64,000 nucleotides of DNA from Staphylococcus phage Machias. The stretch's first letter is position 1. Every line of letters starts with the position of its first letter. This document shows, piece by piece, positions 12,407-36,389 of this stretch. The notes beneath the pieces are model-generated. The model worked only from the letters and a program-made list of their open reading frames with translations. It did no database searches and was not told the origin of the DNA. Location of the stretch: the sequence record MW349128.1. The stretch is one strand, 5' to 3'. The position numbers were made by a program, and so were the translations under genes.

Positions 12407-13409
12407 ATGACAACAGAATTAAAGAATAAAGAAGAAAGAAAAAGAGCTTTAACTGGATATTTAGAACAATTGGTATGGATGGTTCAAAAGAATAATCCTG
12501 ATTTTGATAAAGAAGAAATATTAAAAGAATGTAGAGAATTTGTAAAAGAAAATGTTAAACCTGTTATGACAGAGGTATCAGGTCAAGAAATGAATGTTGA
12601 TTCTTTATTACGTACAGTTATTAATTCAAATTTAATAGTAACTGGATCAGGTTCGATTTATCAAACACAATCACAAAGAAAAAATTTAAATGCAGAGATG
12701 TTAAAAGACTTCATTGATTCACGTAAAGTAGCTAAACATAATATGTTTATAAGTAAAGGTGTAGACGATGTTAAATATCATAAATATATGAATGAACAAA
12801 AAACAATTAAGATCTTGGCTAATAGTTACTATGGTGCTATGATACAAGGAAATAGTATTTTCTATGATCCTTATTCAGGACCTGCTATCACATATAGTGG
12901 TGTTGATATTGTTACGACTTCAGCAATAGCTTTAGAAAGATTTATAGGTAGTAAAATATTCTTTATGAATATTAGTGAGATTTATAATTATATCGTAAGA
13001 ATATGTCAAGAAGAATATAAAGATCATGATATTAAGATAAATTCAGTTCCTACTGATAATGAAATATTAAAAGGTTTATTGGATAACGTAGAATATAATT
13101 TCTCTGAAGATGAAGAAAATGATTTAAAAGAATTCTTTAGTAATTTAACTCAAGATGAGAAAAATAGAGTTTATTTTAAAAATAATCTTTATGGTTTATT
13201 AGATCACACTGATATATTTGATAATAAAATTAGTAAAATGACAGGTAGAGAAGATTTCTTAGATCCGAACGAACCACCTGAAGATATGATACCATTATTA
13301 GATGAATTATTTGATATATTAGAAGACTGGGTTATTTATAATTATCAAGATTACAATAGAATGTATAGAATGAATTATAAAAAACGTAGAAGTGTACTTA
13401 CAATCGATT
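12407..13409 (+). CDS. DNA polymerase family B, C-terminal subunit, exon 1 (motif B KILANSYYGAM, degenerate motif C region, KKRRSVL = KKRY motif)
   Basis: alignment to T4 gp43 (KxxxNSxYG, ...KKRYALNVWD); own strong RBS aggagg and ATG; exon ends at CGATT (13405..13409), which pairs with intron IGS GGTCG. Confidence 0.75.
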
Positions 13410-14050
13410 ATGATAACATGGTCGCTGCTTAAAGTAATTTAAGTTGATTCACATTATTAATTGCTGAGAAAGTATTTATTAAATTAATCAGCATCAATCA
13501 ATATGATTGTTCAACGACTAAATATAATGATACTCATAAAGAGTATATGATATAGTCTATTTTATATTTAAAAATATAATATTAAAGACAGATAGTAACT
13601 TCGTACATTTAGATCCATTATATCAAAAAATGAAAGAAAAGAAACCTGAAGATTTCCCTATTGCAGAAAATGGTTTAGAAGATAAATTAGAACAACGTGT
13701 AGGTAATATATCTATTATTAACTATCAAATTACTAAATTGCTAGAATTATCTTATCATAGATTCTGTAAAGATTTAGGATTAGAAGATGAACATTTAGGT
13801 GTTATATCTATGAAAAATGAGTATGTAAATGCTCCAGTATACAGTAATGTGTATTAGTAAATATTATTAATTGCTGAGACAAAATAAAATTAATCAGCAT
13901 CTTCAAATAATGAAGTTCAACGACTAAATATAATAATTCTTAATAATAAAGAATATGATATAGTCTAGTCTTATATTTAAAATATAAGTATAAACGTTTT
14001 ACTTGACAAACAGTTAACAACAGATAAAAAGAAAACTTATGCTTCATCAG
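13410..14050 (+). mobile_element. composite (twin/tandem) group I intron region: core A 13410..~13625, internal ORF 13630..13857, core B ~13825..14050
   Basis: two complete copies of P3-P4 (ATTAATTGCTGAG), P4'-P6 (AATCAGCATC..), J6/7-P7 (GTTCAACGACTAAAT), P8, P7' (GATATAGTCTA) and P9 hairpins; joining 13409 to 14051 restores ...KKRRSVLTID-L-IQQEGNLVQPPDLDVKGM, colinear with T4 ...KKRYALNVWDMEGTRYAEPKLKIMG. Confidence 0.6.
13630..13857 (+). other. 75-codon ORF between intron cores A and B: either an intron-borne ORF or an insertion exon of polB (unresolved)
   Basis: open frame with no SD sequence; does not align to the T4 gp43 KKRY-to-KIMG segment. Confidence 0.3.
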
Positions 14051-14697
14051 TAATTCAACAAGAGGGTAATTTAGTTCAACCACCAGACTTAGATGTTAAA
14101 GGTATGGCTATTAGAAAAGTTAATACTAATAAACGTATTAGAGAATTATTTACTGAAATATTACAAAAAGATATCTTAGAAAATAAAACTGGAATTGATA
14201 GAATTGGAATTATACGTAAATATAAAGAAATTGAAGAAATGATTAAAAAATCATTAGAGAATGGTGATATTGAATTCTTAAAACCTGGTAAAGCTAATAA
14301 CGCAGAAGTATATAAAGATCCTTATACACAAATGAATTATAGAGCAGCTTTATCATGGAATTTAATGTATCCAGATAAAGAAATATCTCTTCCAGCAAAT
14401 ATCTTAATGGTTAAATTAAATATTAAATCATTTGGAGATATTAAGGATAAAGTTGATGATGAAGAATTATTAGATAAATTTAGAGAAGTATTTAGAAACG
14501 AAAGATTAGTTAAAAATGGAATGAATGTAATTGCAGTTGAAGGTAATACAATTCCTGAAGAATTTAGACCTTTTATTGATTATGATTCAATGATAGAAGA
14601 TCATATTAAACCAGGTAAAGATATTATTGAATCTATTGGAGTTAAAGTGTTAGAATCTTCAAATAGTTCTTTCGTATCAAATATGGTTAAATTTTAA
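14051..14697 (+). CDS. DNA polymerase family B, C-terminal subunit, last exon (thumb region)
   Basis: in-frame continuation ...QQEGNLVQPPDLDVKGMAIRKVNTNK aligns to T4 MEGTRYAEPKLKIMGLETQKSSTPK; omega-G at 14050. Confidence 0.65.
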
Positions 14698-14720
14698 AAA
14701 AAAAAAGGAGGGTATATTTA

Positions 14721-15224
14721 ATGAGATACTTTTTATTTAAACCTAAAAAGTTTCAAGAACTATTTGAAACTGAAAAGAAATTATCATCTGTCTTTGAATA
14801 TTATAGAGATATGAAAAAAGATATTGTATTTAAAGTTGATGAAAATGATGATATTTTTATGATGTTATATAATATTTTAAGTGATGAAATATTACCTTTT
14901 ATAAGATGTAAAGTATACAATAAAAAAGATGGAGAAATACTAAAAGCATCAGAATTATATGTCCCTATTAGTTTGGATATTCATAAAGAAATAAATATAA
15001 ATAAAAATAGTATAGAGTATGATTCTAACATGCCTTATAAACATGGTTTAATTGAATGTCCATCTATTGACGAAGATAATACTAACAATTATCTTCGTTT
15101 AAATTTTCAATATAATGACAAAGATGATTATTTTTATATTTACTTAAATGATATTTATGCTATTTTTGAAGAGATAGATAAAACAGAATTTATGAAAATA
15201 GAAACTAAAAAGAATTTTATGTAG
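14721..15224 (+). CDS. hypothetical protein (167 aa)
   Basis: ORF with RBS aaaggaggg. Confidence 0.5.
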   Translation: MRYFLFKPKKFQELFETEKKLSSVFEYYRDMKKDIVFKVDENDDIFMMLYNILSDEILPFIRCKVYNKKDGEILKASELYVPISLDIHKEININKNSIEYDSNMPYKHGLIECPSIDEDNTNNYLRLNFQYNDKDDYFYIYLNDIYAIFEEIDKTEFMKIETKKNFM

Positions 15225-15283
15225 ATTGAAAAAATTTATTATTTTCATATAAAAATTCTTGCTTAATTTTTAATTTTATGTTA

Positions 15284-15300
15284 AAATATATATTATAAAA
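15284..15300 (+). promoter_or_regulatory. promoter-like motif AAATATATATTATAAAA
   Basis: consensus copy 60 nt upstream of gene 15362; followed by weak hairpin AGAATA..TATTCT. Confidence 0.45.
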
Positions 15301-15361
15301 ACGAGAATATGTCACTATTAAAATTAAACTTATTCTTAATAAATTTGGAGAGTGAAAAGAA

Positions 15362-16672
15362 ATGGCAAAACAATCAGATGTATTTAGTAAAAAGAAATCA
15401 TTATATAGAAAAAATGGTAGAAAAATACCTTCTAAGTTTAGAAAGATGGATGTAGATGGTACTTGGTTTTATAGATTTGATCATAATAGATTTATCATTG
15501 ATAATTTAACTAGATTTATGGAAGATAAAGAATTAAAAAAATTATTAAATGATTATAGAAATAATTATGATAATAAAGAAAAATTTAATAATGATTGTTA
15601 CTTCTTTGAATTAGATAAAGATATACCTAAATTAAATAAATCTCAATTAAAGATATTCTTCACTCATTTATCTAGAAAACATATTGGAAAAGATTTCTTA
15701 AAAAATATTACTTTGAAAGATAATTCTAAATTAGAAATAAAAGAATTTGATGATTTAGAAATATGGTCAAGAGAACCTGATAAAGAAGAAGTATATGACG
15801 TTGGTTATCTTGATATGAAAGATTATAGAATGATTGCTCATATTGATCATGAAAATGAAGAAATTGTTATTCATACAGATATTGAAGAAGAAAATCCAAA
15901 ATCATATAGTACTTTAATTAGTTCTTTAGAATCAATTGAAATTGATGATTATTATGAAGATATTAGCTCTGATGAAATAAGAATTAAATTAAATGACTTT
16001 AATTTAAGAAAAGTATTTAATAAGACTAATAGTAAAATATTTAAAGTTATTTTACCAGTTACTTATAATTATGAAGGTTTTGATGATCAAGTGTCCTTCT
16101 TATTTGATAATTTCAGTAAAACATATATTAAACAACTTGAAAAAGAAGAATACGATAAGAAAATGCCTATCGGAGGACAACCTTATCATTTAAGACCTGA
16201 AAATAGACCTTATTATGCTAAACGTAGAATAATTAAAGATTGGAATATTTATGAAATATTTGATGAAGATAAAGATGGATATAAATTATTCAGTGTTAAA
16301 GATGATCAAGGGTTTATTTATTTAATATACTATATTGGTAAGAATTATCATGGTAAAGGTATAATAGTTAACGGTAAAGAATCTCCAGAACTTCAAGATC
16401 CGTCTAATTATAGAAAATCAGTTAAATTAAAAGATATTTATTACAGTGTATTAATTTCACAAGCTAAATATAATCTAATGAAGAAAAATAAATTTGATAT
16501 TTATACAGCTTTTGATACATCCAACCCTAAATATATGACAATTTCAGATGAAGAAAATATTCATACAACTGATTTCTTAATACCTGAAAGACCATTTAAA
16601 ATTAGACAAACTAAATTTAGAGAAGATAAAATATCAAATTTAAAAGATAAATTCGTAGAGGAGTTTGAATAG
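15362..16672 (+). CDS. hypothetical protein (436 aa)
   Basis: ORF with RBS ggagagtgaaaag. Confidence 0.55.
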   Translation: MAKQSDVFSKKKSLYRKNGRKIPSKFRKMDVDGTWFYRFDHNRFIIDNLTRFMEDKELKKLLNDYRNNYDNKEKFNNDCYFFELDKDIPKLNKSQLKIFFTHLSRKHIGKDFLKNITLKDNSKLEIKEFDDLEIWSREPDKEEVYDVGYLDMKDYRMIAHIDHENEEIVIHTDIEEENPKSYSTLISSLESIEIDDYYEDISSDEIRIKLNDFNLRKVFNKTNSKIFKVILPVTYNYEGFDDQVSFLFDNFSKTYIKQLEKEEYDKKMPIGGQPYHLRPENRPYYAKRRIIKDWNIYEIFDEDKDGYKLFSVKDDQGFIYLIYYIGKNYHGKGIIVNGKESPELQDPSNYRKSVKLKDIYYSVLISQAKYNLMKKNKFDIYTAFDTSNPKYMTISDEENIHTTDFLIPERPFKIRQTKFREDKISNLKDKFVEEFE

Positions 16673-16675
16673 TAT

Positions 16676-17410: not shown

Positions 17411-17412
17411 AC

Positions 17413-17470
17413 AAATAATCCATGTTTGACAAATTCAAGTCAAACATGGATTTATTATAATTTTTTTTTT
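17413..17470. terminator. rho-independent terminator (AATCCATGTTTGAC / loop / GTCAAACATGGATT + T10)
   Basis: 14-bp perfect stem followed by a poly-T run. Confidence 0.75.
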
Positions 17471-17508
17471 ATAAAAATTGACATTGAGGAAGGAAATTAA
17501 AATGAAAA

Positions 17509-17802: not shown

Positions 17803-17805
17803 TAA

Positions 17806-18957
17806 ATGAAAGTAGATATGATAGATATTGAACAAGTCATAACTGATACAAATGCTAAAGAAGTAACCAATCCTGTATTTTTCGATTCAGGTATACTACC
17901 AAAAGAAGATGGTTTATTTTCATATGATATATTTGGTTTAATAGGTACTCCTGAAAGAAAAACCAATTTAGGTTGGATTAATTTAAAGGATAAATACCTT
18001 AATCCGGTGGCTTATAAAGCATTAAAAGATTTAGATAAAAATATTGAACTATGTATTCAGGGTTCAGAGTATTTTAAAGTAGAAAAAGGTCAATTAGTTC
18101 CTTCAGAAGATGGAGATACTGGACTGAATTTCTTATATGAAGTATTTGATGATTTAAAATTTAGAAAGAATGATTCTCGTATTAGATCTGAAAAAATTGA
18201 TATGATTAAAAATACAGATAAGCAAAAAATATTTGTAGATAAATGGCTAGTAATACCTGCTTTTTATAGAGACTTTAATCCTAATGAAACTTCAGGAGAA
18301 ATTCAAGATACTGAAGAAGTTAATAATATGTATTCTTCTATTATACGTTCTGTAGATGCTATTAGTTTTAATTCTTTTGGTTTTATTGCTAACAGTACTA
18401 AATATAATATACAAAATACATTATTTGAAATATATCAGAAATTTACTTCAGGAGAATTATCAGGTAAAACTGGTTTTATGCAAAAACGTATATTGGGTAA
18501 AACAGTAGATAATAGTACTCGTGCAGTTATTTCTTCACCTAAAATTAATTCGAATAGATGGGATGAAATGCAGATAGAGTTTGGTGAGTTAGGTGTACCA
18601 TTAACTCAATTAGTTACCTTATTTTTACCATTCTTTAATAAGTATATAATTGATTTTATTGAACTTCATAAAGATGCTTTCCAAACAGCTACTGGAAATG
18701 ATGAGAAAGAATTATCATTAGAAGAAGTGTATGAACAATTCGATGATAAATCTATTAAGAATATGCTAGAATTCTTTATTAAAGATCCTAATGAAAGATT
18801 TAGTCCTATATATGTAAATGATAGAGAAGGTAAACGCCATAAAGTTAAATTATTTGAAAAAACTTTGGGTAGAGATTTTACTGTAATTGATTTACTTTAT
18901 ATTGCTGCAACCGAAATAGTAGAAGATAAGCATGTTATGTATTCAAGATATCCGATT
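17806..18957 (+). CDS. multisubunit RNA polymerase beta-prime-like subunit, N-terminal half, exon 1
   Basis: PKEDGLFSYDIFG ~ E. coli KPERDGLFCARIFGP; GKTGFMQKRILGKTVDNSTRAVIS ~ [23 protein letters not shown]; exon ends MYSRYPI (NRAPTLH region) at CGATT 18953..18957. Confidence 0.75.
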
Positions 18958-19152
18958 AATAAAATGGTCGCTGCTTAAAGTGATTTAAGTTGATAAACAT
19001 TGTTAATTGCTGAAATACTATTAATAAAGTTAATCAGCATCAATTAAATATAATTGTTCAACGACTAAATGCAATGATACTATTTAATAGTATATAATAT
19101 AGTCTAATTTATATAATACTTATATAAATATAATAAATGCGAAAATTTCTTG
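18958..19152 (+). mobile_element. group I intron C (compact, no ORF)
   Basis: first 31 nt identical to intron A (ATGGTCGCTGCTTAAAGTRATTTAAGTTGAT, IGS GGTCG); cores TTAATTGCTGAAA / AATCAGCATC / GTTCAACGACTAAATGC / ATATAGTCTA; 3' end approximate. Confidence 0.65.
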
Positions 19153-19341
19153 AACGTAGCACCTGCTAAAATTAAAATATTAACTACTGTTGATACTATT
19201 CCAGAAATAATTTTAGATGATATAGTATTAAAAGATTACCCTAAAGTAGTAAGAGAGTATCCTGTTGATGAAGATATTTTCTTAGATACTGCAATCATAC
19301 ACAATTCATATGCTCAAGCACTTGGTGCAGATTTTGATGGC
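19153..19341 (+). CDS. RNAP beta-prime N-half, exon 2 (ends ...AQALGADFDG = first part of the NADFDGD catalytic motif)
   Basis: in-frame segment ending GADFDG immediately before intron D; start boundary uncertain (ORF track 19150..19365 reads through into the intron). Confidence 0.5.
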
Positions 19342-19491
19342 AAAATTTTATATTACCATCATTAAATAATATTAATTGCTGGAAAATCTAATAAGATAAT
19401 CAGCATCAACTTAATAAAAGTTGTTCAACGACTAAATATATTACTAAAGAAGATATAGTCTAATTATATGTAAATACATGTATATAAAATG
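19342..19491 (+). mobile_element. group I intron D (compact, no ORF)
   Basis: ATTAATTGCTGGAAAA / AATCAGCATCAAC / GTTCAACGACTAAATAT / GATATAGTCTAATT; omega-G at 19491. Confidence 0.65.
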
Positions 19492-19635
19492 GATATGATT
19501 TCAATACGCTCTTTATGGTCTGTAGAAGCAAATAAAGAAGCTGATAAACTTATTAATAAGAAAACTAATTACTTAAACTACACAGGAAATAGTATACGTG
19601 GAGTTGGTAATGAGAGTAAGTTTGTATGCTCTCAA
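19492..19635 (+). CDS. RNAP beta-prime N-half, exon 3 (DMISIRSLWSVEANKEADKLI...)
   Basis: aligns to E. coli [21 protein letters not shown] directly after NADFDG; the 3' end could lie anywhere 19606..19635. Confidence 0.5.
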
Positions 19636-19760
19636 TAAATTTCATTAATTGCTGGAAAAACAAAATTAATCAGCATCAACTTAATAAAAGTTGTTCAACG
19701 ACTAAATATGAAAATGATTTAAATATCATAAGATATAGTCTAATTATCATAAATATATGG
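19636..19760 (+). mobile_element. group I intron E (compact, no ORF)
   Basis: ATTAATTGCTGGAAAAA / AATCAGCATCAAC / GTTCAACGACTAAATATG / GATATAGTCTAATT, nearly identical to intron D; boundaries approximate. Confidence 0.6.
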
Positions 19761-19781
19761 TACAAGCTTTATATTCTTTAA
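19761..19781 (+). CDS. RNAP beta-prime N-half, tiny terminal exon (YKLYIL-stop ~ E. coli LGLYYMT), ends the N-terminal beta-prime polypeptide
   Basis: in-frame continuation after the omega-G at 19760; stop at 19779..19781; the beta-prime C-half is encoded separately at 39794. Confidence 0.3.
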   Translation, partial: YKLYIL

Positions 19782-19802
19782 CTAAAGAATAATTTAAAAA
19801 TT

Positions 19803-19837
19803 CAGAGTAACGGTCTAATATAGATCGTTACTCTTAT
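19803..19837. terminator. terminator hairpin (AGAGTAACG / loop / CGTTACTCT)
   Basis: 9-bp inverted repeat after the beta-prime N-half gene, followed by T-rich sequence. Confidence 0.55.
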
Positions 19838-19865
19838 TATATTGCTTTTATACAAAATACTTATT

Positions 19866-19883
19866 TAAATATATATTATAAAA
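19866..19883 (+). promoter_or_regulatory. promoter-like motif TAAATATATATTATAAAA upstream of the paralogue array
   Basis: exact consensus copy 30 nt upstream of the RBS of gene 19913. Confidence 0.45.
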
Positions 19884-19912
19884 TAGAAGTATATTAAAAT
19901 ACAAAAGGAGAA

Positions 19913-20545
19913 GTGATTATTTTGAATATTAATGATTATAGATATTTTAAAATGGATGATGGATTAATGCAAATCCATAAAGATAAAATTAAAGGAAATA
20001 TTACAGACTTGATAGGAATGTTGCATATTGATGTAGATCGTATCAAGGAAGATAATTTTCTAAATTTAGGTTTAGAAAGATTAAATATAAATATTTCTTT
20101 TGATAATCTTGAATTGGTATGGGAAAATATAAAATTTCAATTTAGTTTGTCGATAATTATTTTTGCTGAAAAACAAGAAAATGAATTAAATGAATATACA
20201 AGTAGTATAAGATTTTTTTATGATAATGAAGAAAGACAAATGGAGAGTGATAGATTTAAAAAACTTATATTAAATGTTGATTATATAAAAAATTTTGTAA
20301 GTTTAATGGTAGATGATAAAGAAATCGATGATTTAACAATTTCTATTTTTAATTATGATAAAAATGATTTTCATTTAAAATGTTCTGATATTGTAATTAG
20401 ATACTTATACGATTTAGAAAGAAGATTTAATGATAAAGGTTATGATTTGTTATTAAATGGTAAGAATATAAATGAATTAGAAGACAATGAAGAAAAAGAT
20501 ATTGATAAGATTAAGAAATATTTAGTGAAAGAAAATTTTAAATAA
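19913..20545 (+). CDS. tail-family paralogue 1 (C-terminus ...DIDKIKKYLVKENFK)
   Basis: RBS aaaggagaag; GTG/TTG start region; conserved C-terminal tail. Confidence 0.6.
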   Translation: MIILNINDYRYFKMDDGLMQIHKDKIKGNITDLIGMLHIDVDRIKEDNFLNLGLERLNINISFDNLELVWENIKFQFSLSIIIFAEKQENELNEYTSSIRFFYDNEERQMESDRFKKLILNVDYIKNFVSLMVDDKEIDDLTISIFNYDKNDFHLKCSDIVIRYLYDLERRFNDKGYDLLLNGKNINELEDNEEKDIDKIKKYLVKENFK

Positions 20546-20556
20546 GGAATGATAAA

Positions 20557-21219: not shown

Positions 21220-21236
21220 TGGAGTTGAAATAGATA

Positions 21237-21722: not shown

Positions 21723-21735
21723 GGAGGAATTATTA

Positions 21736-25057: not shown

Positions 25058-25843
25058 ATGTCTAATGAAAATAACGGAATTGATTTAATTTCACAAATTA
25101 ATGATATGATGGAAGAATATAAAATGCTAGTTGGATTTAAATCTAAAATGGAACGTAAAGAAATTCAATTAGAAGAAAGAATTAGAGATTTAACTAAGAA
25201 TCTGAAATATCCTAAACATACATTTGTATCTAATATGGAAGCTAATATTATTAGTGTAGAAAAAGAAATTAAAGACACTATTATGCAAATGAAAAATGTT
25301 AAAAAAGATATTATTGACTTAACTATGAAAGCTCAGAAAATGGCTGAAGATGATGAATCTGAAGATAACTATAAAGTGCTTGCTAAAAATGTACTTAGTC
25401 AGCTTAATAATATGTCTAATAAAGATATATTAAACAGCATGACAGAAAATGAAGAAGATACTGCTGAAGATGAAGAAGATTTGAAAGATAAATTAGATCA
25501 AACTTTAGAAAATCTAAATAAAGATATAGATGAAGATGAAAAAGAAATTGAAAAAAGAGAGGAATTACAAAAAGAAGTTAATGAACTTAAACATCAAGAC
25601 TTAGCTTCTATTTTAAAAGTATATAAAGGCACATTGCAATTCTTTGTATTAGGTGATACTCCAAATGAATATGAACTAGTAATTGCTGATAATGAAATGA
25701 ATATCATTGAAGAAGATGAGCTTGAAGATGAATATCCAGAATTATTTACTATGACTAGAGATCTTATCTTTGAAGATGTTGAAGGTAATGATGAAATAGT
25801 TAAAGATGAATTTGGAAATATTTATCAAAAAGCAGAATTTTAG
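25058..25843 (+). CDS. acidic coiled-coil protein, not a tail-family member, embedded in the array
   Basis: ORF with RBS gaaagaagtg; E/D/K-rich heptads. Confidence 0.5.
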   Translation: MSNENNGIDLISQINDMMEEYKMLVGFKSKMERKEIQLEERIRDLTKNLKYPKHTFVSNMEANIISVEKEIKDTIMQMKNVKKDIIDLTMKAQKMAEDDESEDNYKVLAKNVLSQLNNMSNKDILNSMTENEEDTAEDEEDLKDKLDQTLENLNKDIDEDEKEIEKREELQKEVNELKHQDLASILKVYKGTLQFFVLGDTPNEYELVIADNEMNIIEEDELEDEYPELFTMTRDLIFEDVEGNDEIVKDEFGNIYQKAEF

Positions 25844-26451: not shown

Positions 26452-26453
26452 AA

Positions 26454-26472: not shown

Positions 26473-26476
26473 CGTT

Positions 26477-26506: not shown

Positions 26507-26531
26507 TATTATAATAAAAGGAGTTAAATAA

Positions 26532-27311: not shown

Positions 27312-27312
27312 T

Positions 27313-28859: not shown

Positions 28860-28873
28860 AGGAGGATTTTTCG

Positions 28874-29734: not shown

Positions 29735-29794
29735 AATTAAAATTCTATAATAACGGAAAATTATAGTAGTATAACTAGGAGATGAAATTAGATA

Positions 29795-32530
29795 ATGAAA
29801 ATTAAACGATTAAAGTTAGTTAACTTTATAGGTATATATGCTGGGACAGGTCTTAAAGAAATTGAGATAGACTTCAGTAAGAGTAAAAATAATATGATAA
29901 TGCTACTTGGAAATAACGGATCTAGTAAGACTGTGATACTTTCACAACTAAGTCCGTATAGAACTTCTAATGATAATCGTAAGACAATTACGATTGAAGG
30001 AGAAAAAGGAGTTAAAGAAATCGATTATATTAAAGGTAATGATGTATATAAAATTAAACATCATTATGGTAAAAATAGTTCTCAGAATAAATCATTTATT
30101 AAAAAGAATGATGAAGAATTAAATGAAAATGGTGGCATTAAACTGTTTAATGAAATAGTTGATAATGAATTAGACGTATCACAAGAATATTTCACAGTAG
30201 GTAGATTAGGAGATAATGTATCTAACTTTATAGACTATACTACAGGTGATCGTAAAACATATATTAACAAATTTGTACCTAATATTGATAAGTATTTAGA
30301 AGCTTATAAAGTTGCTAATGAAAAGAAAAAGCTTATTGATAAAGATCTTAAGTCATTAAGATTTGATTTAGATAAATATAAAGAATTTGATGAAATTAAG
30401 AAAGAAAAAGAAGTACTAGAAAATTTAATTAATGAAATTCAAGATGAATTAGATAATGCTAATAAAGAAAAGACTTCTAATGAGACCAAATTAAATTCTA
30501 TTATGGAAGAAAAGTATAATGAAATTCATCCAACTCAATTAAAAGAAAATTTAATTAATGAACTTCATGAACTTGAAAATGAATTAGAAAAAGAAAGAAA
30601 GTTAAAAGAATCTAATGAAAATCTAAATAATTATACATTAGAATCTGCTAATGAAAAGAAAGAAAAAGTATCTTCTATACTTAATGAAGTTCATACAAAT
30701 TTAACATCAACTAAAAAGGATAAAGAATCTAATCAAGATAAATTAGATGATTTAATTAGTAGAAAATCTAAAATTGAATCTAGAATGAATGCTATTAAGT
30801 TCAATGAAGATTATGATGCTTCACAGGAAATTGATGAAATTCTTCAATCATATAAAGATGATCTAACTGATTTAGATAATGATATAGATGTTGCTAGAGG
30901 ATCCTATTTCAATAACTTTAATATTAAAATTAAAGATAATATTGAAGTTAATACACTTAATTTATATATAGATAACCTATTAAATAAAGTTAATAAATTC
31001 AAGAGTCTAGTTAATGATAATAAATTTAAATATAATGATATTCATGGAGATTTTGAAACTGAAATTAAATCTAATAAAGAAAAAATTTCTATGAACCTAA
31101 ATGAAGCTAATGAACTTAATACAAGTCTTAATCAAATTAAAGGTAAATCAGATTTACTTAAAATATTAGAACAAAAAGATCATGAACATTATAAAGAATG
31201 TGTATTTGTACCTTTAGTAGTTGATTTTAAAGATAATGAATATGATTCAATTGATAAATTGGAAACTAGAGTTAATGAACTTTATGAAGAAAATAATCAG
31301 TTAGAAAATGATAATGAACTTCTTTCTAATCATATCGATATATTAAATCAATTTAATTATATTAAAGAAGATGTCGATTCATTAAACGAATATTTAGGTT
31401 TTGATATTATTACTATGGATAATATTAAAGAGATATTTATTAATAATAGCTCATTTACTAATGAAGAAAATAGCTTGAAATCATTATCAGATAATGTTAA
31501 TGAAATTAGAACATCTGAACGCAATAGAGATGAATTATCTAAAGAATTGGAAAGAAAAAGATATGCGTTTAAAGAAGATCATTCTAATCAAAAATTAATG
31601 AATCAATATAACGAAGATAAAGCTGAATTAGAAAAGCAGATTGAAGAAGTTAAAAGTAATAAAGATAATATCTTAGAGAATCTTAATGAACTTAATGCAA
31701 AGAAAGATAAAGGACAAAATACTTTAGACATTATTAATGAATTTATTAATTTAACAGAAAAGTCTGATGAAATTAAATCTAACATTAAAGATAAACAATC
31801 TAATATTGATGAAGTTGATAAAGATTTAAATAATTTAAGTAGATTATATGAACTTAATCAACAATCAGATAGTAAGATTAATTCTATTAAAGATAATTTA
31901 ACTATGAAGAAAAATGATTTAGAATCTACTAAAGAAAAATACTTTACAGTAAATACGATTATTAATAAGATTGATGATATTGAGAAAGTATTATGGAAAT
32001 ATTCATTAGTAGTCGATTCATTGAATCCTAAAAAAGATTCTATACCATTAATATTCATTACTAATTACCTTAAAGATATTGCAGTAAGTACTAATGAACT
32101 TCTTTCAGTGGCGTACAATAATTCATTCAAGATTGATTTTGATTTAACTGACAAGGATTTCTTTATTAATGTTTATAAAGGTAATGGTACTGAATTACAA
32201 GACATTAAAGAAGCTTCTCAAGGGGAAACAGCTTTAACTAATATTAGTTTATCATTATCATTATTAAATAAAGTTTCACAAGATTATAATATTCTTTATC
32301 TAGATGAAATGGATGCAACATTAGACTCTAATAATCGTAGAAGATTTGTTGATGTTATTGATAAGCAAATTGAATTAATGGGATTAGAACAAGTATTCTT
32401 AATTAGTCATAATGATGAATTTTATAGTTCTGATATTGATTTAATTTTGCTTAAAGGATATGAAAATAAGATTGATATTAATGATGAAGAAATGATGCAA
32501 GGTAAAAATGTATTGTTTAAATTAAATTAA
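29795..32530 (+). CDS. SbcC/Rad50-like SMC-family ATPase (T4 gp46-like)
   Basis: N-terminal Walker A LLGNNGSSKT; long coiled-coil; C-terminal signature ASQGETAL and Walker B/D-loop NILYLDEMDATLD. Confidence 0.7.
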   Translation: MKIKRLKLVNFIGIYAGTGLKEIEIDFSKSKNNMIMLLGNNGSSKTVILSQLSPYRTSNDNRKTITIEGEKGVKEIDYIKGNDVYKIKHHYGKNSSQNKSFIKKNDEELNENGGIKLFNEIVDNELDVSQEYFTVGRLGDNVSNFIDYTTGDRKTYINKFVPNIDKYLEAYKVANEKKKLIDKDLKSLRFDLDKYKEFDEIKKEKEVLENLINEIQDELDNANKEKTSNETKLNSIMEEKYNEIHPTQLKENLINELHELENELEKERKLKESNENLNNYTLESANEKKEKVSSILNEVHTNLTSTKKDKESNQDKLDDLISRKSKIESRMNAIKFNEDYDASQEIDEILQSYKDDLTDLDNDIDVARGSYFNNFNIKIKDNIEVNTLNLYIDNLLNKVNKFKSLVNDNKFKYNDIHGDFETEIKSNKEKISMNLNEANELNTSLNQIKGKSDLLKILEQKDHEHYKECVFVPLVVDFKDNEYDSIDKLETRVNELYEENNQLENDNELLSNHIDILNQFNYIKEDVDSLNEYLGFDIITMDNIKEIFINNSSFTNEENSLKSLSDNVNEIRTSERNRDELSKELERKRYAFKEDHSNQKLMNQYNEDKAELEKQIEEVKSNKDNILENLNELNAKKDKGQNTLDIINEFINLTEKSDEIKSNIKDKQSNIDEVDKDLNNLSRLYELNQQSDSKINSIKDNLTMKKNDLESTKEKYFTVNTIINKIDDIEKVLWKYSLVVDSLNPKKDSIPLIFITNYLKDIAVSTNELLSVAYNNSFKIDFDLTDKDFFINVYKGNGTELQDIKEASQGETALTNISLSLSLLNKVSQDYNILYLDEMDATLDSNNRRRFVDVIDKQIELMGLEQVFLISHNDEFYSSDIDLILLKGYENKIDINDEEMMQGKNVLFKLN

Positions 32531-32551
32531 ATTTGAAAAGGATGTTTTAAA

Positions 32552-32695
32552 ATGAATAAAAAAAGACTATTAATATCTACTTTAATGACTATTGCAATTG
32601 CTTTACCACTTAACGTATTCTTTGAACATTTAAGAACTAGATATCAGCAAGATGATATAGACACAGTTGATACAGAGAAAGAATTATTCTTATAG
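32552..32695 (+). CDS. small hydrophobic peptide (47 aa), not in the ORF track
   Basis: ATG after aaaggatg; TM-like LLISTLMTIAIALPL. Confidence 0.3.
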   Translation: MNKKRLLISTLMTIAIALPLNVFFEHLRTRYQQDDIDTVDTEKELFL

Positions 32696-32707
32696 TTAAT
32701 CAAACAT

Positions 32708-32745
32708 GCCAAACGATTCTAATCGAGTCGTTTGGCATTATATTT
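32708..32745. terminator. rho-independent terminator (ATGCCAAACGAT / loop / GTCGTTTGGCAT + T-run)
   Basis: 12-bp GC-containing stem followed by TTATATTTTT. Confidence 0.75.
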
Positions 32746-32813
32746 TTAATTTTTTACAAAATTGTAATAACTAGCAATTATGAAATAACTTGAATTAGGA
32801 GGAATTTTTAGTT

Positions 32814-33282
32814 ATGGGTCGTTTTATAAAATCAACATATTTGAATAAAAAAGAAACATCTAATAAAAAAGAGAAAGTAGTAATGGTTGTTAAGGAAGAA
32901 GATGGAACTAAGAAACATATGGAAATAGTAGATCCTATGATGCATTATTATGTAACTAAAGATGAACATTGGTTACCACCTAATATAGTTGTAGGTTCTA
33001 TGGCTAAAGAAAAAGTTAGAACTGTACACTGTAAACATAAAGATGTTATTAAATCTATAGTTAGAGAAGCAGGTAATGCTCAAGATAAATCAGAATACGA
33101 TAGAATATTATCTTCAGGTAATTATGAAGAGTTTAGAAAATTAAAAGATTTTCATTTAATGAATAATGTTCATGGATCTGATATTAATATTGAAGATTAT
33201 AATATTAATGAGTATATCAAACAAAACTTAGATAGTAAAGTTGGAATTGATATATGTCTATTTGATATAGAGGTAGATGGAT
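32814..33282 (+). CDS. DNA polymerase family B, N-terminal subunit, exon 1 (Exo I motif FDIEVDG)
   Basis: RBS aggagg; ICLFDIEVDG ~ T4 gp43 ANCDIEVTGD; the exon end is approximate, chosen so the product reads DIEVDG-F-PEPGMAE against T4 DIEVTGDKFPDPMKAE. Confidence 0.7.
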
Positions 33283-34070
33283 CGCAAACAGTTGGGTTAA
33301 TTTAGGTAGCTCAATTAAAAAATTATTAATTGCTGAAAAGTTTAAAAATAATCAGCATCACTAATTTAGTGTTCAACGACTAAATATAATAATATAATTC
33401 AAATATACTTCCTTTATAAAAGGAGGAAAATAATGAAAGAAATATGGAAAGACATTAAAGATTTTGAAAATTACTATAAAATATCCAATACTGGTAAAGT
33501 TAAATCGGTTTCAAGATATGTATATAATGATTCTTTAAAAGGTAAAGATAAAAGAATGCTTATTAAAGAAAGAGTATTAAAAACAAGAATAAATAAAAAT
33601 GGTTATGAAGATGTTCAATTATATAGAAATAATAAGAAGCATACAAGAAGAATACACCGTTTAGTTGCAGAGAATTTTATCGAAAATAAAGATATTGATA
33701 AAAATGTAGTTAATCATATTGACGGTAATAAATTAAATAACAATTTATCTAATTTAGAATGGATGTCAGTATTAGAAAATAATTTACATGCTATAGAAAA
33801 TAATCTTCATAAAACTGATAAAATGGAAGAATCATTAAAAAAGAGAAGAAAACCAGTAGCACAAATAGATAAAGAAACAGATAAAATTATAAAAGAATAT
33901 GAAAGTGCTAAATTTGCAGCGGAAGAATTAAATATAGATAGAAAAGGAATACAAGCAGTTGCAAATGGTTATAGAAATAGTAAAACTTACAAAAATTTTA
34001 AATGGAAATATATTTGAATTTAAAAGATATAGTCTAATCTTTATACAATTGTATAAAGTTAATATAAATG
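33283..34070 (+). mobile_element. group I intron F with an HNH homing endonuclease ORF inserted between P7 and P7'
   Basis: ATTAATTGCTGAAAAG / AATCAGCATC / GTTCAACGACTAAATAT before the ORF and GATATAGTCTAATC (34026..34036) after it. Confidence 0.65.
33433..34017 (+). CDS. intron-encoded HNH homing endonuclease (NUMOD4-like N-terminus, HNH_3 core, C-terminal NUMOD1/IENR1-like HTH)
   Basis: MKEIWKDIKDFENYYKISNTGKVKS; VNHIDGNKLNNNLSNLEW; RBS aaaggagg. Confidence 0.8.
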   Translation: MKEIWKDIKDFENYYKISNTGKVKSVSRYVYNDSLKGKDKRMLIKERVLKTRINKNGYEDVQLYRNNKKHTRRIHRLVAENFIENKDIDKNVVNHIDGNKLNNNLSNLEWMSVLENNLHAIENNLHKTDKMEESLKKRRKPVAQIDKETDKIIKEYESAKFAAEELNIDRKGIQAVANGYRNSKTYKNFKWKYI

Positions 34071-34360
34071 TCCCTGAACCAGGAATGGCTGAAATTAATA
34101 TTATAACTGTAGTTGATTGGAGTAAACGTAAATGTTTAACATTTGCATTAAAATATGATACAGATAATTATAATGAAGTTATGACAGATAAAACTAAATT
34201 AATGGAAGATCTAAATAATATTTATAATAATAAAGATAGCGAGATTGGAGAAGATTTAGGTTTAGAATTTGAAATATATGAATTAGATACTGAAATGGAA
34301 ATTATTAAATCATTCTTATACTATATTAATGAAATTAGTAAGCCTGATATATGTACGGCT
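34071..34360 (+). CDS. DNA polymerase family B, N-terminal subunit, exon 2 (ends ...KPDICTA before Exo II)
   Basis: PEPGMAEINIITVVDWSKRKCLTFAL ~ T4 PDPMKAEYEIDAITHYDSIDDRFYVFDL; the exon end ACGGCT pairs with intron IGS GGTCGT. Confidence 0.7.
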
Positions 34361-35447
34361 TGAGAAACACACTGGGTCGTGTAAAACCTTTTTAATTGCT
34401 GGAACGTCCTTATTGCTTAGTGAGCTACAACGTGACTGGTAACGGTGAGCGTGATATGCTTAAAAATCATTAAGATTGGATAATCAGCAGCGAAGACTCT
34501 ATAAATCCTTTTCAAGAAAGGATGATTAATATGAATTATAAACCGAAAAATAAAAAGAAAATAACCAATGAAGATTGGAAAGAAATTGTCAAAGAATTAG
34601 GTAATGATGAATATGAAGTATTAGGAGATTACCTGGGTACAAAAAACAAAATTGAAATGAAACATAAAATATGTGGAGAGACATTTTTTATGACACCAAA
34701 TAATTTTAAAATAAGTGAAAATCGTTGTCCTATCTGTTCTATAAAGAAAGTTTCAGAAAAACGTAGGAAGAAGACAAAGGAATTAAATGAAAAAATAAAA
34801 GAAGTTCTTGATGATTCTTATGAATTTAAATTGAACGGTAATGAAACTGTTCATAATAAAATAAAAGTAAAACATAAACAATGTGGAAACGAATACAGTG
34901 TTTTAATAAGACATATAATTTATGATAAAAATAAATGTAGTAAATGTCAAGATTTTGTTAATTCAAGAGATGAAAAAGAAATAAATAAATTCCTTATAGA
35001 AATGGGCGTAGATTTCGAAAGACAATATAAATTTGAAGATGACAAAGTAAAAAATCTTAGATTTGACTTTGCAGTTTTTAAAAATAACGAAATCAAACTT
35101 ATAGAATTTGATGGTGAATTTCATTTTAAAGAAAAATTTGGTGGACCAAAAGCATTTGAGAAAGTAGTATACAATGACTATCTCAAAAATAAATTTTGTT
35201 TTGACAATAACATAAAATTACTTAGAATACCTTATTGGGAAAGTAATAATAAAAAAGAAATAATAAAAAGGTTTATAGAGTAACGTTCAACGACTATCGA
35301 AAAGTGAGCATTATGTCGAGAGGACCTATTGCAATATAACTGAGTAGAGTACACTTTTAATTAAGTGGAAAAAGAAGGGTATGTAGAGTAACGTCTATAT
35401 ACAAGATATAGTCTATCTTTCAATAAAATATATTTTATTGAAATTTG
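34361..35447 (+). mobile_element. group I intron G carrying a homing endonuclease ORF between P6 and P7
   Basis: P1 pairing ACGGCU/GGUCGU; TTAATTGCTGGAACG ... TAATCAGCAGC; after the ORF come GTTCAACGACTATCG ... AGATATAGTCTATC and a P9 hairpin; omega-G at 35447 immediately before TGG AAT (WN of Exo II). Confidence 0.7.
34522..35283 (+). CDS. intron-encoded homing endonuclease, tandem Zn-finger-like DNA-binding modules plus Vsr/PD-(D/E)xK-like (DUF559-like) nuclease domain
   Basis: two HKxCGxxF...NxxxxxRCPICS / KCSKC repeats; C-terminal LRFDFAVFKNNEIKLIEFDGEFH; homologous to ORF 63260..64000(-). Confidence 0.55.
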   Translation: MINMNYKPKNKKKITNEDWKEIVKELGNDEYEVLGDYLGTKNKIEMKHKICGETFFMTPNNFKISENRCPICSIKKVSEKRRKKTKELNEKIKEVLDDSYEFKLNGNETVHNKIKVKHKQCGNEYSVLIRHIIYDKNKCSKCQDFVNSRDEKEINKFLIEMGVDFERQYKFEDDKVKNLRFDFAVFKNNEIKLIEFDGEFHFKEKFGGPKAFEKVVYNDYLKNKFCFDNNIKLLRIPYWESNNKKEIIKRFIE

Positions 35448-36389
35448 TGGAATCTAGATTTTGACTTTGCAACTATATTTGAAAGAATTAAAGTTAATGG
35501 AGAAGATCCAGCTGATTATTTCTGTTCTAAAGATTTACAAGATAAAAAAGCTTATTATAGATTAGATAAAAACGCTACAGATGCAGCTAATAGATCATCT
35601 ACGTTCGAAACTAACTCATACACTAACTGGATTGACCAATTAGCTTTATATGCAAATGTAAATAAACCAAATGGTGTTATGGAATCAGTTAAGTTAAATG
35701 ATGTTGGTGAAAAAGAAACTGGTATTAAGAAAGATGTATATGAAGGATCTATCTCTGATTTACATTTTAGAGATTATTATACATTCATTCTTTATAACAT
35801 TAAAGATACTGTATTAACTGCTTTAATAGAAAAGAACACTAATATGTTTGATTTATTATTCTCTATTGTAGATATGACTAGAACTAGACCAAGTAAAGCA
35901 CTTAAGAAAACTATTTGTTTAAGAAATCGTAGTTCTGTCTTCTTTGAAAATCAAGGATATGTATTAAGTAATAATCACTCTAAAATACTATCTGATCCAA
36001 ATGCAGATAAAATACGTGGTGGATTTGTAGCTAATATGACATTAATAGAACGTATGGGTGATATTTTAGTTAAAGGTAGAGATATTAGATCTAATAGATT
36101 ATTTAGTAATGTTTGTGACTTTGACTTGAGTTCACTATATCCTTCTATTATTAGAGGATTTAATATAACACCTGAAGGGCATATAGGTAAAATTCAAATA
36201 CAAGATAAATCTACAATGACAGTTCCTAAGTATGAAGAAGACAAATTAAATTACGACTTTAATACTGAATTTATTAGTAAATTTAACAGTCAAGATAGTG
36301 TAGCATTTGCTCAAGAATTTCATGGTTTACCTCCATTGAATATTGCAGCTAAGAAAGTATCTGATAAAATAAAAAGTAAAGGAGCTTAA
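35448..36389 (+). CDS. DNA polymerase family B, N-terminal subunit, exon 3 (Exo II WNLDFDF, Exo III YNIKDTV, motif A [12 protein letters not shown]); the polypeptide ends 70 aa after motif A
   Basis: colinear with T4 gp43 GWNVESF / YNIIAVY / [23 protein letters not shown]; stop at 36389 with no intron signature after it. Confidence 0.8.
   Translation, partial: [313 protein letters not shown]

What the first reader, a model, noticed from the sequence alone, without database searches (positions are those of the whole stretch)
12407..36389. Family-B DNA polymerase split into two independently translated genes in inverted order and ~18 kb apart
The Exo I/II/III motifs and motif A ([12 protein letters not shown]) are encoded at 32814..36389. 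That gene has its own RBS and start, and its stop at 36389 comes 70 aa after motif A with no intron signature. Motif B (KILANSYYGAM), the motif C region and KKRR-YxL are encoded at 12407..14697, again with a strong RBS (aggagg) and an ATG. The split falls between motifs A and B, and the C-terminal part lies upstream of the N-terminal part on the same strand. Split gp43 (43A/43B) is known in a few T4-like phages, but this arrangement of distant, inverted and multiply intron-bearing halves is unusual. It implies the two polypeptides assemble in trans.
Basis: partly seen in the sequence, partly recalled or inferred. Interest (0 to 1): 0.75.

Follow-up and report, generated by a model that had tools for sequence, protein, structure and literature searches.

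The report
Known split DNA polymerase, jumbo phage
The window comes from Staphylococcus jumbo phage Machias, whose family-B DNA polymerase really is encoded by two separate, intron-interrupted genes 18 kb apart; this layout is shared by the whole AR9/PBS1-like phage group and is already annotated and published, so it is real but not new.

Summary
A 571-aa N-terminal half is encoded at 32814..36389 and carries Exo I/II/III and motif A. A 645-aa C-terminal half is encoded at 12407..14697 and carries motif B, motif C and the thumb. They lie on the same strand, C half first, 18,116 nt apart. Each has its own AGGAGG and ATG, and each is interrupted by two compact group I introns.

It is not novel. 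After splicing, both halves match GenBank proteins of Staphylococcus phage Machias, "DNA polymerase catalytic subunit" and "DNA polymerase exonuclease domain protein". They differ by one codon each, at one exon junction. The same two-gene layout, break point, order and neighbouring genes occur in Bacillus phage AR9. There the genes are gp152 and gp132, the latter annotated "exonuclease and partial catalytic domain", and both are reported as continuously expressed. The layout is also found in the other Staphylococcus jumbo phages and in over 100 metagenomic relatives. Phage DC4 has both halves without introns.

Both halves are under purifying selection and every catalytic residue is invariant. 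Relatives' complete genomes hold no second polB. I found no split-intron or split-intein signals.

The most likely mechanism is a two-chain polymerase whose palm active site is built from both chains. Assembly itself has not been tested.

The parts
12389..12394 (+). Shine-Dalgarno AGGAGG of the C-terminal half
   Evidence: Read directly from the sequence; 12 nt upstream of the ATG at 12407.
12407..13408 (+). Exon C1 of the polB C half (334 codons): N-terminal helical head, fingers with motif B KILANSYYG (K135), a multi-helical insert, KKRR, and the first Asp of motif C (…LTID)
   Evidence: tblastn with the intron-free DC4 protein; junction read against DC4 DNA; spliced translation.
13409..13587 (+). 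Group I intron C-I1, 179 nt, no ORF. It splits motif C between D334 and T335.
   Evidence: Absent from DC4 and Madawaska. The exon ends in U and the intron ends in G. P/Q/R/S core elements are present and the P3-P8 pairing shows covariation.
13588..13822 (+). Exon C2 (TDSNFVHLDP … ISMKNE + first base of the F codon)
13823..13996 (+). Group I intron C-I2, 174 nt, no ORF
   Evidence: Absent from DC4 and present at the same site in Madawaska. U at -1 and a terminal G. The core is included in alignment A1.
13997..14697 (+). Exon C3: rest of the palm, the thumb, and the C-terminal tail …SSFVSNMVKF, plus the stop codon
   Evidence: Colinear with AR9 gp152, JD-Fnp4 gp117 and N1M2 gp34.
32706..32738 (+). 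Terminator-like hairpin followed by a T run, just upstream of the N half. It supports the N half being its own transcription unit.
   Evidence: Scan. Madawaska annotates a terminator at the homologous place.
32797..32802 (+). Shine-Dalgarno AGGAGG of the N-terminal half
   Evidence: Read directly from the sequence; 11 nt upstream of the ATG at 32814.
32814..33297 (+). Exon N1: N-terminal domain and Exo I (FDIEVD), ending …SQTVG plus the first base of the F codon
33298..34070 (+). Group I intron N-I1, 773 nt. It carries an HNH/NUMOD homing-endonuclease ORF at 33433..34017, inserted in the P8 loop.
   Evidence: Absent from DC4 and Madawaska. AH12 has an ORF-less 154-nt version at the same site. 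Pfam NUMOD4, HNH_3 and I-HmuI NUMOD-like. R and S elements at 33371 and 34026.
34071..34360 (+). Exon N2 (…FPEPGMAEINII … KPDICTA)
34361..35447 (+). Group I intron N-I2, 1087 nt, just before Exo II (…CTA|WNLDFDF). It carries a homing-endonuclease ORF at 34522..35283, inserted upstream of the R element.
   Evidence: Precisely absent from AH12 and DC4. PB50 has an ORF-less 142-nt version at the same site. PHROG 559/9084/7140 homing or intron-encoded endonuclease. R and S elements at 35285 and 35405.
35448..36389 (+). Exon N3: Exo II, Exo III, motif A ([10 protein letters not shown], D482), a 78-aa tail predicted as mainly helical, and the TAA stop
   Evidence: AlphaFold2 secondary structure.

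Best explanation
This is the replicative family-B DNA polymerase of an AR9/PBS1-like, uracil-DNA jumbo phage (Staphylococcus phage Machias). It is encoded as two genes that are transcribed and translated separately.

Each pre-mRNA first loses two self-splicing group I introns. Two of the four introns carry homing endonucleases.

The 571-aa product supplies the N-terminal domain, the 3'-5' proofreading exonuclease, and the first palm element with the motif A aspartate (D482). The 645-aa product supplies the fingers (R106, K110, K135), a clade-specific multi-helical insert, the motif C aspartates (D334, D336) and the thumb.

The two metal-binding motifs sit on different chains. The polymerase active site can therefore exist only in a non-covalent heterodimer. 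This step is inferred, not shown.

The roughly 115 extra residues that flank the break are predicted to be mainly helical. They are the N-half tail (about residues 500-571) and the C-half head (about residues 1-75), and they are the likeliest docking surfaces.

The arrangement is ancestral to a large phage clade and is already annotated.
For: Identity of the window:
- The spliced halves match GenBank 'DNA polymerase catalytic subunit' at 643/645 residues and 'DNA polymerase exonuclease domain protein' at 570/571 residues. Both are from Staphylococcus phage Machias.

The split is real and conserved:
- DC4 has both halves as uninterrupted ORFs of 644 and 573 aa, about 19 kb apart and in the same order.
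- AR9 g152 and g132 are colinear with the two halves. They share the order, the strand and the neighbours (virion RNA polymerase beta', SbcC, N half, portal). Each has an annotated early promoter.
- Both AR9 genes are reported as continuously expressed.
- Twenty C-half homologues are listed, the 17 near-full-length ones measuring 629-681 aa. About 108 N-half homologues measure 330-690 aa, mostly 535-635. The first unsplit proteins (884 and 889 aa) appear only at E about 1e-12 and 27-28% identity.

The genes are functional:
- dN/dS against DC4 is 0.18 for the N half and 0.23 for the C half.
- Exo I/II/III and motifs A, B and C are invariant across 52 N-half and 17 C-half homologues.

Domain content:
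- The N half matches RB69 gp43 residues 107-338 and 404-436. Its model matches RB69/T4 gp43 by Foldseek at E 1e-17.
- The C half matches PF20286 and PF00136, and its model matches RB69/T4 gp43 and Pol delta.
- On the Pfam DNA_pol_B profile, the N-half tail covers positions 59-91 and the C half covers 97-200.
- In the models of the isolated chains, motif A (479-501) and motif C (333-337) are the low-confidence patches. This fits a palm that is completed only in the complex.

Introns:
- Relatives show precise presence/absence of each intron.
- All four have U at -1 and a terminal G.
- In the core alignment, 98.9% of cells pair and 14 of 25 pairs show compensatory changes. Slid controls pair at 27-47%.

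Precedent:
- The split 43A/43B proteins of Aeromonas phage 25 co-purify and are active.
Against: - No experiment on this phage or on AR9 shows that the two chains bind each other. Heterodimer formation is inferred from motif distribution and conservation.
- The AlphaFold2 models are of single chains only, so the interface is not modelled.
- Rfam's group I model does not score these introns, even at a permissive threshold.
- Kazlauskas and Venclovas describe the phiKZ-type split with both catalytic aspartates on the polymerase chain. This differs from what is seen here, so the break point may not be uniform across all jumbo phages.
Confidence: 0.9

Rival explanations
1. The two halves are joined after transcription or translation, by group I trans-splicing or by a split intein, to give a single-chain polymerase.
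For: The genome is rich in group I introns: ten R-element copies lie in the window. Relatives carry an intein in gyrA. About 115-130 extra residues flank the break, which is roughly the size of a mini-intein.
Against: - No P, R or S intron core elements lie near the 3' end of the N-half gene or the 5' end of the C-half gene. The nearest copies are internal.
- The N half ends in a conserved stop that is followed 3 nt later by another ORF. The C half has its own RBS and ATG, and in AR9 its own mapped promoter.
- Neither half matches a Hint or intein Pfam domain, even at E <= 10.
- The C-half head has no HN followed by C/S/T at the point where the extein homology resumes.
- The flanking tails diverge fastest rather than being conserved like intein blocks.
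Confidence: 0.03
2. The fragments are decaying remnants of a once-intact polB, and another polymerase replicates the phage.
For: On first sight the gene looks fragmented, with multiple stops and mobile-element insertions. Only 64 kb of the genome is visible in the window.
Against: - dN/dS is 0.18 and 0.23.
- All catalytic residues are invariant across dozens of homologues.
- The introns are removed exactly and restore the frame.
- tblastn finds a single place per complete genome for each half in AH12, PB50, S6, PALS_2, MarsHill and Madawaska. These relatives therefore have no second polB.
- AR9 expresses both genes.
Confidence: 0.02
3. The two products work independently. The N half acts as a free-standing proofreading exonuclease, and the C half is a self-sufficient polymerase, as has been proposed for phiKZ-type phages.
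For: Iyer et al. and Kazlauskas and Venclovas describe the phiKZ-group polymerase as lacking a fused exonuclease, which is encoded elsewhere and may associate as a standalone protein. The C half matches the Pfam family built for that group.
Against: - The canonical, invariant motif A ([10 protein letters not shown]) is on the N half.
- The C half has no conserved substitute. The only Asp in a similar strand-helix context, D64, is not conserved in AR9, JD-Fnp4 or N1M2.
- By the established two-metal mechanism of family-B polymerases, where RB69 D411 and D623 bind the metals, the C half alone lacks one metal ligand.
Confidence: 0.05

Closest known systems
Staphylococcus phage Machias DNA polymerase subunits (GenBank; Korn et al., bioRxiv 10.1101/2020.12.14.422802)
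   Same: It is the same locus. The annotated 644-aa 'catalytic subunit' and 570-aa 'exonuclease domain protein' match the spliced products derived here. The paper lists the DNA polymerase subunits among the intron-disrupted genes.
   Different: Two of the four annotated exon junctions differ by one codon from the junctions derived here: VG-PEP against VGFPEP, and NEY-LDK against NEFLLDK. The junctions derived here obey the group I rule of U at -1 and a terminal G. They also reproduce the intron-free DC4 sequence at NEFLL and the GFP residues shared by DC4 and AR9.
Bacillus phage AR9/PBS1 gp152 (DNA-polymerase catalytic subunit) and gp132 (DnaQ-like exonuclease plus partial catalytic domain)
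   Same: Same break point, with motif A on the exonuclease chain. Same order and strand, and the same neighbours. The two genes are 15 kb apart against 18 kb here. Each has its own promoter, and both are continuously expressed.
   Different: The AR9 genes have no introns, and identity is only 36-38%. In AR9 the gene downstream of the N half is a DnaQ-like exonuclease. Here it is an unrelated 261-aa ORF.
phiKZ-group 'divergent family B DNA polymerase' (Pfam PF20286) with a separately encoded exonuclease
   Same: - The exonuclease chain and the polymerase chain are encoded by distant genes.
- The C half matches PF20286 at E 3.4e-52 and is colinear with Klebsiella phage N1M2 gp34.
- Both share the long multi-helical insert before motif C. 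Both also share a C-terminal motif that resembles the published TRLISDFY.
   Different: Published descriptions put both catalytic aspartates on the polymerase chain. Here motif A is unambiguously on the exonuclease chain. I did not test whether the phiKZ-group break point truly differs.
Split gene 43 (43A/43B) of T4-related Aeromonas phages 25 and 44RR (Petrov et al. 2010, as reviewed in PMC2988022)
   Same: A family-B polymerase made of two polypeptides. In phage 25 they co-purify and are active.
   Different: There the two cistrons lie in normal N-to-C order. They are separated only by an untranslated spacer (44RR) or by a seg homing-endonuclease insertion (phage 25). Here they are 18 kb apart, with the C half first and unrelated genes in between.
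Archaeal split PolB: the two-gene PolB of Methanothermobacter thermautotrophicus and the split-intein PolB of Nanoarchaeum equitans (recalled from memory, not checked here)
   Same: The catalytic subunit of a family-B polymerase is encoded by two separated genes.
   Different: The lineage is different. In Nanoarchaeum the halves are ligated by a split intein. No intein is detectable here.
Fragmented NrdA of Aeromonas phage Aeh1 (PMC3045599)
   Same: An essential replication-related enzyme is split into two chains that reassemble. This offers a model for how residues flanking the break could serve as assembly domains (abstract).
   Different: It is a different enzyme, and its split was caused by a resident homing-endonuclease gene between the halves. 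No mobile element remains at the break here.

Membership tests
Family B (polB-type) DNA polymerase | 3'-5' exonuclease motifs Exo I (DxE), Exo II (Nx2-3FD) and Exo III (Yx3D) | tested here: met
   D151/E153, N260/D264 and Y374/D378 on the N half are invariant in 52 homologues. The N half aligns to RB69 gp43 residues 107-338. Foldseek against RB69/T4 gp43 gives E 1e-17.
Family B (polB-type) DNA polymerase | Polymerase motifs A (DxxSLYPS), B (KxxxNSxYG) and C (DTDS) | tested here: met
   Motif A [10 protein letters not shown] (D482) is on the N half. Motif B KILANSYYG (K135) and motif C IDTDS (D334/D336) are on the C half. All are invariant. PF00136 matches both pieces.
Family B (polB-type) DNA polymerase | All domains on a single polypeptide (the usual architecture) | tested here: not met
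   There are two ORFs, each with its own start and stop, 18,116 nt apart. The same holds in AR9, DC4 and more than 100 relatives.
Pfam PF20286 divDNApol (jumbo-phage group 1 divergent PolB) | Score above the curated gathering threshold | tested here: met
   The C half scores 178.1 bits against a cutoff of 25.7, E 3.4e-52.
Pfam PF20286 divDNApol (jumbo-phage group 1 divergent PolB) | Long multi-helical insert immediately before the motif C beta-hairpin | tested here: met
   199 residues lie between motif B (K135) and motif C (D334). The AlphaFold2 model shows helices 189-324 with block-mean pLDDT 86-95 over residues 191-310. The insert is described by Iyer et al..
Group I self-splicing intron | The 5' exon ends in U (U·G pair in P1) and the intron ends in G | tested here: met
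   This holds for all four polB introns. The P1 pairings ACGGCU/GGUCGU (N-I2 site, PB50 copy) and CGAU/GUCG (C-I1) were read from the sequences.
Group I self-splicing intron | Conserved core (P/Q/R/S elements) forming P3-P4-P6-P7-P8, with the P3/P7 pseudoknot | tested here: met
   TTAATTGCTGG, AATCAGCATC, GTTCAACGACTAAAT and AGATATAGTCTA are present. Of 25 pairs, 98.9% of cells pair and 14 pairs show compensatory changes. No shuffle out of 500 reached the observed value, and slid controls pair at 27-47%. The match of these elements to the classical P/Q/R/S consensus is from memory.
Group I self-splicing intron | Match to Rfam RF00028 (Intron_gpI) | tested here: not met
   No hit at the gathering threshold or at E <= 10. 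[quoted passage not shown] The compact 142-179 nt forms probably fall outside the model.
Group I self-splicing intron | Self-splicing activity | not testable with these tools
   Splicing is inferred from the exact restoration of the reading frame and from intron-free alleles in relatives.
Split intein (protein trans-splicing) | Hint-domain halves at the C end of the N fragment and the N end of the C fragment, with HN followed by C/S/T at the junction | tested here: not met
   No Hint or intein family is found in either half or in the virtual fusion at E <= 10. No canonical junction residues were seen by inspection.
Two-subunit (heterodimeric) PolB such as T4-related 43A/43B | Physical association of the two chains and reconstituted activity | not testable with these tools
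   This has been shown for phage 25 only. Here it is inferred from the split active site and from co-conservation of the two halves.

The most novel reading that the evidence does not exclude
The roughly 115 extra residues at the break are predicted to be mainly helical. They comprise the N-half tail (about residues 500-571) and the C-half head (about residues 1-75). They could form a dedicated heterodimerisation module left behind by the mobile-element insertion that originally fractured the gene, as in the split NrdA of Aeh1.

The architecture with motif A on the exonuclease chain may also be the true layout in phiKZ-type phages. If so, the published assignment of both catalytic aspartates to the phiKZ-type polymerase chain would need revision. 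Every group 1 jumbo phage would then run a replicase whose active site is shared between two chains.
Probability: 0.25. Interest if true: 0.4.

Novelty: already known. Interest (0 to 1): 0.12.

Why it matters
For discovery purposes it matters little. The split polymerase of AR9-like and phiKZ-like jumbo phages is in GenBank and in several papers, and this exact locus is annotated.

Three modest points remain useful:
- The exon-intron map here is exact. It suggests that two of the four annotated Machias junctions are off by one codon.
- The data make explicit that the break lies inside the palm, between motifs A and B. The catalytic site must therefore be assembled from two chains. No paper I could read states this clearly, and it is directly testable by co-expression.
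- The compact 142-179 nt group I introns escape Rfam, so automated pipelines will keep fragmenting these genes.

Tried and rejected
- **Rfam.** I scanned the whole window at the gathering threshold and both gene regions at E <= 10. No group I hit came back. I established intron identity instead from presence/absence in relatives, splice-site rules and covariation.
- **tRNA scan.** No tRNA genes were found.
- **AR9 genome paper.** The Lavysh 2016 paper is not held in the library. I relied on the AR9 GenBank annotation and on the mBio 2017 paper.
- **Structure prediction with my own spliced sequences.** I used the GenBank Machias proteins P0001 and P0021 instead. A fused or paired two-chain model could not be submitted, so the interface was not modelled.
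- **Contig look-up for P0021.** No encoding contig is on record.
- **Adjacent or fused halves in metagenomic relatives.** In L011-L013 the C half has no exonuclease-domain neighbour within 5-10 kb. No fused homologue appears above about 28% identity.
- **Second polB in the window.** None was found.
- **Shared promoter motif.** AATAACTAG occurs only twice in the window, once upstream of each half. The count itself is no more than chance, and the motif is only loosely kept in relatives. I left it as a note.
- **The ORF downstream of the N half.** I compared 36393..37178 with AR9 gp131 and found no similarity.
- **A substitute motif A in the C half.** D64 follows a beta-strand in the C-half head, but it is not conserved in AR9, JD-Fnp4 or N1M2. 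I rejected it.

Full report
**Origin of the window.** The window is very AT-rich, about 23% G+C. Megablast places it among the Staphylococcus jumbo phages: PB50 and AH12 at about 96% identity, and S6, PALS_2, MarsHill, Madawaska, DC4, SA1 and LY01 at about 83%. A protein search then identified it exactly. The spliced C half is 643/645 identical to 'DNA polymerase catalytic subunit [Staphylococcus phage Machias]'. The spliced N half is 570/571 identical to 'DNA polymerase exonuclease domain protein [Staphylococcus phage Machias]'. Both lie on a 274,478-bp record. Machias is one of the three phages described by Korn et al. That paper lists the 'DNA polymerase subunits' among the intron-disrupted genes and reports a circularly permuted genome from PhageTerm analysis of the phage contigs.

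I used the intron-free DC4 proteins of 573 and 644 aa as tblastn probes. I then read each junction against DC4, AH12, PB50 and Madawaska DNA. The resulting map is:

| Half | Feature | Coordinates | Note |
|---|---|---|---|
| C | exon C1 | 12407..13408 | |
| C | intron C-I1 | 13409..13587 | 179 nt |
| C | exon C2 | 13588..13822 | |
| C | intron C-I2 | 13823..13996 | 174 nt |
| C | exon C3 | 13997..14697 | product 645 aa |
| N | exon N1 | 32814..33297 | |
| N | intron N-I1 | 33298..34070 | 773 nt; HNH/NUMOD ORF 33433..34017 |
| N | exon N2 | 34071..34360 | |
| N | intron N-I2 | 34361..35447 | 1087 nt; endonuclease ORF 34522..35283 |
| N | exon N3 | 35448..36389 | product 571 aa |

The N half carries Exo I (D151/E153), Exo II (N260/D264), Exo III (Y374/D378) and motif A ([10 protein letters not shown], D482). 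The C half carries motif B (K135), KKRR (325) and motif C (IDTDS, D334/D336). Each gene has AGGAGG 11-12 nt before its ATG. The N half ends in TAA, and another ORF starts 3 nt later. The two genes are 18,116 nt apart on the same strand, with the C half first.

Two small corrections apply. The N half ends 78 aa after the motif A stretch, not 70. Intron C-I1 cuts motif C itself, between D334 and T335.

**Domain content.**
- The N half aligns to RB69 gp43 residues 107-338 (exonuclease) and 404-436 (motif A).
- Its AlphaFold2 model has mean pLDDT 85.7 and matches RB69/T4 gp43 at Foldseek E 1e-17 over about 450 columns.
- The C half matches Pfam PF20286 'divergent family B DNA polymerase' (E 3.4e-52) and PF00136.
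- Its model has mean pLDDT 82 and matches RB69 and T4 gp43, Pol delta, Pol alpha and archaeal PolB.
- On the PF00136 profile, the N-half tail covers positions 59-91 and the C half covers 97-200. The break therefore sits inside the palm, right after motif A and before the fingers.
- In the isolated-chain models, the patches of lowest confidence include motif A (479-501) and motif C (333-337). This is what one would expect if the palm sheet is completed only in the complex. It is suggestive, not proof.
- The long helical block at C-half residues 189-324 is the 'unusually long multi-helical insert' described for group 1 jumbo-phage polymerases.

**The split is conserved, expressed and constrained.**
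- *AR9.* Its annotation lists g152 'DNA-polymerase catalytic subunit' (641 aa). [quoted passage not shown] They lie 15 kb apart in the same order and on the same strand. Each has an annotated early promoter. The neighbours match those here: virion RNA polymerase beta', SbcC, N half, portal. Both proteins are named among the continuously expressed replication genes.
- *Colinearity.* Alignments show that AR9, DC4, Fusobacterium phage JD-Fnp4 gp117 and Klebsiella phage N1M2 gp34 are colinear with the window's halves from end to end.
- *The 5.8-billion-protein collection.* Twenty C-half homologues are listed; the 17 near-full-length ones measure 629-681 aa. About 108 N-half homologues measure 330-690 aa, mostly 535-635. 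Unsplit proteins of 884 and 889 aa appear only at E about 1e-12 and 27-28% identity.
- *Co-occurrence.* Halves occur together on large contigs, for example P0010 with P0044 and P0018 with P0064. In three metagenomic loci the C half has no exonuclease-domain gene within the DNA held, 5-10 kb on either side.
- *No second polB.* tblastn finds one place per complete genome for each half in the Staphylococcus relatives.
- *Selection.* dN/dS against DC4 is 0.18 for the N half and 0.23 for the C half. The break-flanking tails are the least constrained, at 0.30 and 0.38.
- *Invariant residues.* All catalytic residues are invariant across the homologue alignments.

**The intervening sequences are group I introns.**
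- Each is precisely absent in at least one relative, and its removal restores the frame.
  - DC4 lacks all four.
  - AH12 lacks N-I2 and has an ORF-less 154-nt N-I1.
  - PB50 has an ORF-less 142-nt N-I2.
  - Madawaska lacks C-I1 and N-I1, has C-I2 at the same site, and has an intron 6 nt downstream of the N-I2 site.
- In all four, the exon ends in U and the intron ends in G.
- They carry TTAATTGCTGG, AATCAGCATC, GTTCAACGACTAAAT and AGATATAGTCTA. I recognise these as the classical P, Q, R and S elements; that recognition is from memory.
- I aligned eleven ORF-less cores from the window and from relatives. With P3, P4, P6, P7 and P8 specified, including the P3/P7 pseudoknot, 98.9% of cells pair and 14 of 25 pairs show compensatory changes. 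No shuffle out of 500 reached the observed value. Slid controls pair at 27-47%.
- Rfam does not detect these introns.

**Rival readings.**
- *RNA trans-splicing.* No intron core element lies near the 3' end of the N-half gene or the 5' end of the C-half gene. A terminator-like hairpin at 32706..32738 precedes the N half.
- *Split intein.* No Hint or intein family matches either half or their virtual fusion at E <= 10.
- *Pseudogenes.* This is contradicted by the selection data, the invariant residues and AR9 expression.
- *Independent function.* The C half lacks any conserved substitute for the motif A aspartate; D64 is not conserved. By the established two-metal chemistry of family-B polymerases, it should not polymerise alone.

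**Mechanism and precedent.** The most likely mechanism is a non-covalent two-chain polymerase with a composite palm active site. The closest experimental precedent is the 43A/43B pair of Aeromonas phage 25, whose chains co-purify and are active. The phiKZ-group literature already speaks of a 'split subunit DNA polymerase' and a separately encoded exonuclease. That literature places both catalytic aspartates on the polymerase chain. Here motif A is on the exonuclease chain. I did not test whether this is a true difference or an alignment issue in the older work.

**Verdict.** The finding is accurate but already known and already annotated for this very phage. Three small points remain: an exact intron map that differs from GenBank at two junctions, an explicit statement that the active site is split between chains, and the observation that these compact group I introns escape Rfam.

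Noticed in passing
window 33297|34071 and 13822|13997: The GenBank Machias proteins differ from the products spliced here at exactly two junctions: VG-PEP against VGFPEP, and NEY-LDK against NEFLLDK. The junctions derived here follow the group I rule of U at -1 and a terminal G. They also reproduce the intron-free DC4 sequence at NEFLL and the GFP residues shared by DC4 and AR9. The deposited joins are therefore probably off by one codon.
   Followed up: yes
window 19004..19742 (+): Three more compact group I introns of the same family have R elements at 19056, 19423 and 19693. They interrupt the gene whose ORF pieces lie at 17806..20545. By synteny with AR9 g145 and DC4_00023, this is the virion RNA polymerase beta' subunit. 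Pfam gave no hit on the pieces.
   Followed up: partly
window 62252..63432 (-), continuing beyond 63871: Three introns of the same family lie on the minus strand, with R elements at 62305, 62919 and 63432. They sit in an RNA polymerase beta-type gene: the ORF 61459..62220 matches Pfam Rpb2 domain 6. The third intron appears to hold an ORF (63260..63871) and runs toward the window end.
   Followed up: partly
L001 (Madawaska) about 3487..3600, against window 34361: Madawaska carries an ORF-less intron of the same family 6 nt downstream of the Machias/PB50 N-I2 site (…TGGAAT|…|CTAGAT against …GCT|…|TGGAAT). Neighbouring but distinct insertion sites lie next to Exo II.
   Followed up: partly
window 33433..34017 and 34522..35283: The two homing-endonuclease ORFs sit in different loops of otherwise similar introns. 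The HNH/NUMOD ORF lies after the R element, in the P8 loop. The second ORF lies before the R element and has only PHROG matches and no Pfam match. ORF-less versions of both introns exist in AH12 and PB50.
   Followed up: partly
window 12364..12372 and 32766..32774: AATAACTAG occurs only twice in the 64 kb window, 43 and 48 nt upstream of the two polB start codons. Each copy is followed by AATTATG. Related ATAACT-like strings lie upstream of the homologous genes in Madawaska, DC4 and AR9. This could be a shared promoter or regulatory element, but the count alone is not above chance.
   Followed up: partly
C-half residues 636..645 (window about 14665..14694): The C-terminal tail …SSFVSNMVKF aligns with AR9 …QFPTNILTF and N1M2 …TRLVSDEH. 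It resembles the 'TRLISDFY' motif proposed as a possible clamp-binding signature in phiKZ-like polymerases.
   Followed up: no
window 36393..37178 and 14721..15224: An ORF without any Pfam or PHROG match follows each polymerase half tightly, 3 nt and 23 nt after the stop. The ORF after the N half is unrelated to AR9 gp131, the DnaQ-like exonuclease that occupies that position in AR9.
   Followed up: partly
window 25680..25689: An exact copy of the intron P element TAATTGCTGA lies inside ORF 25058..25843, with no R or S element nearby. It is probably a chance match.
   Followed up: no
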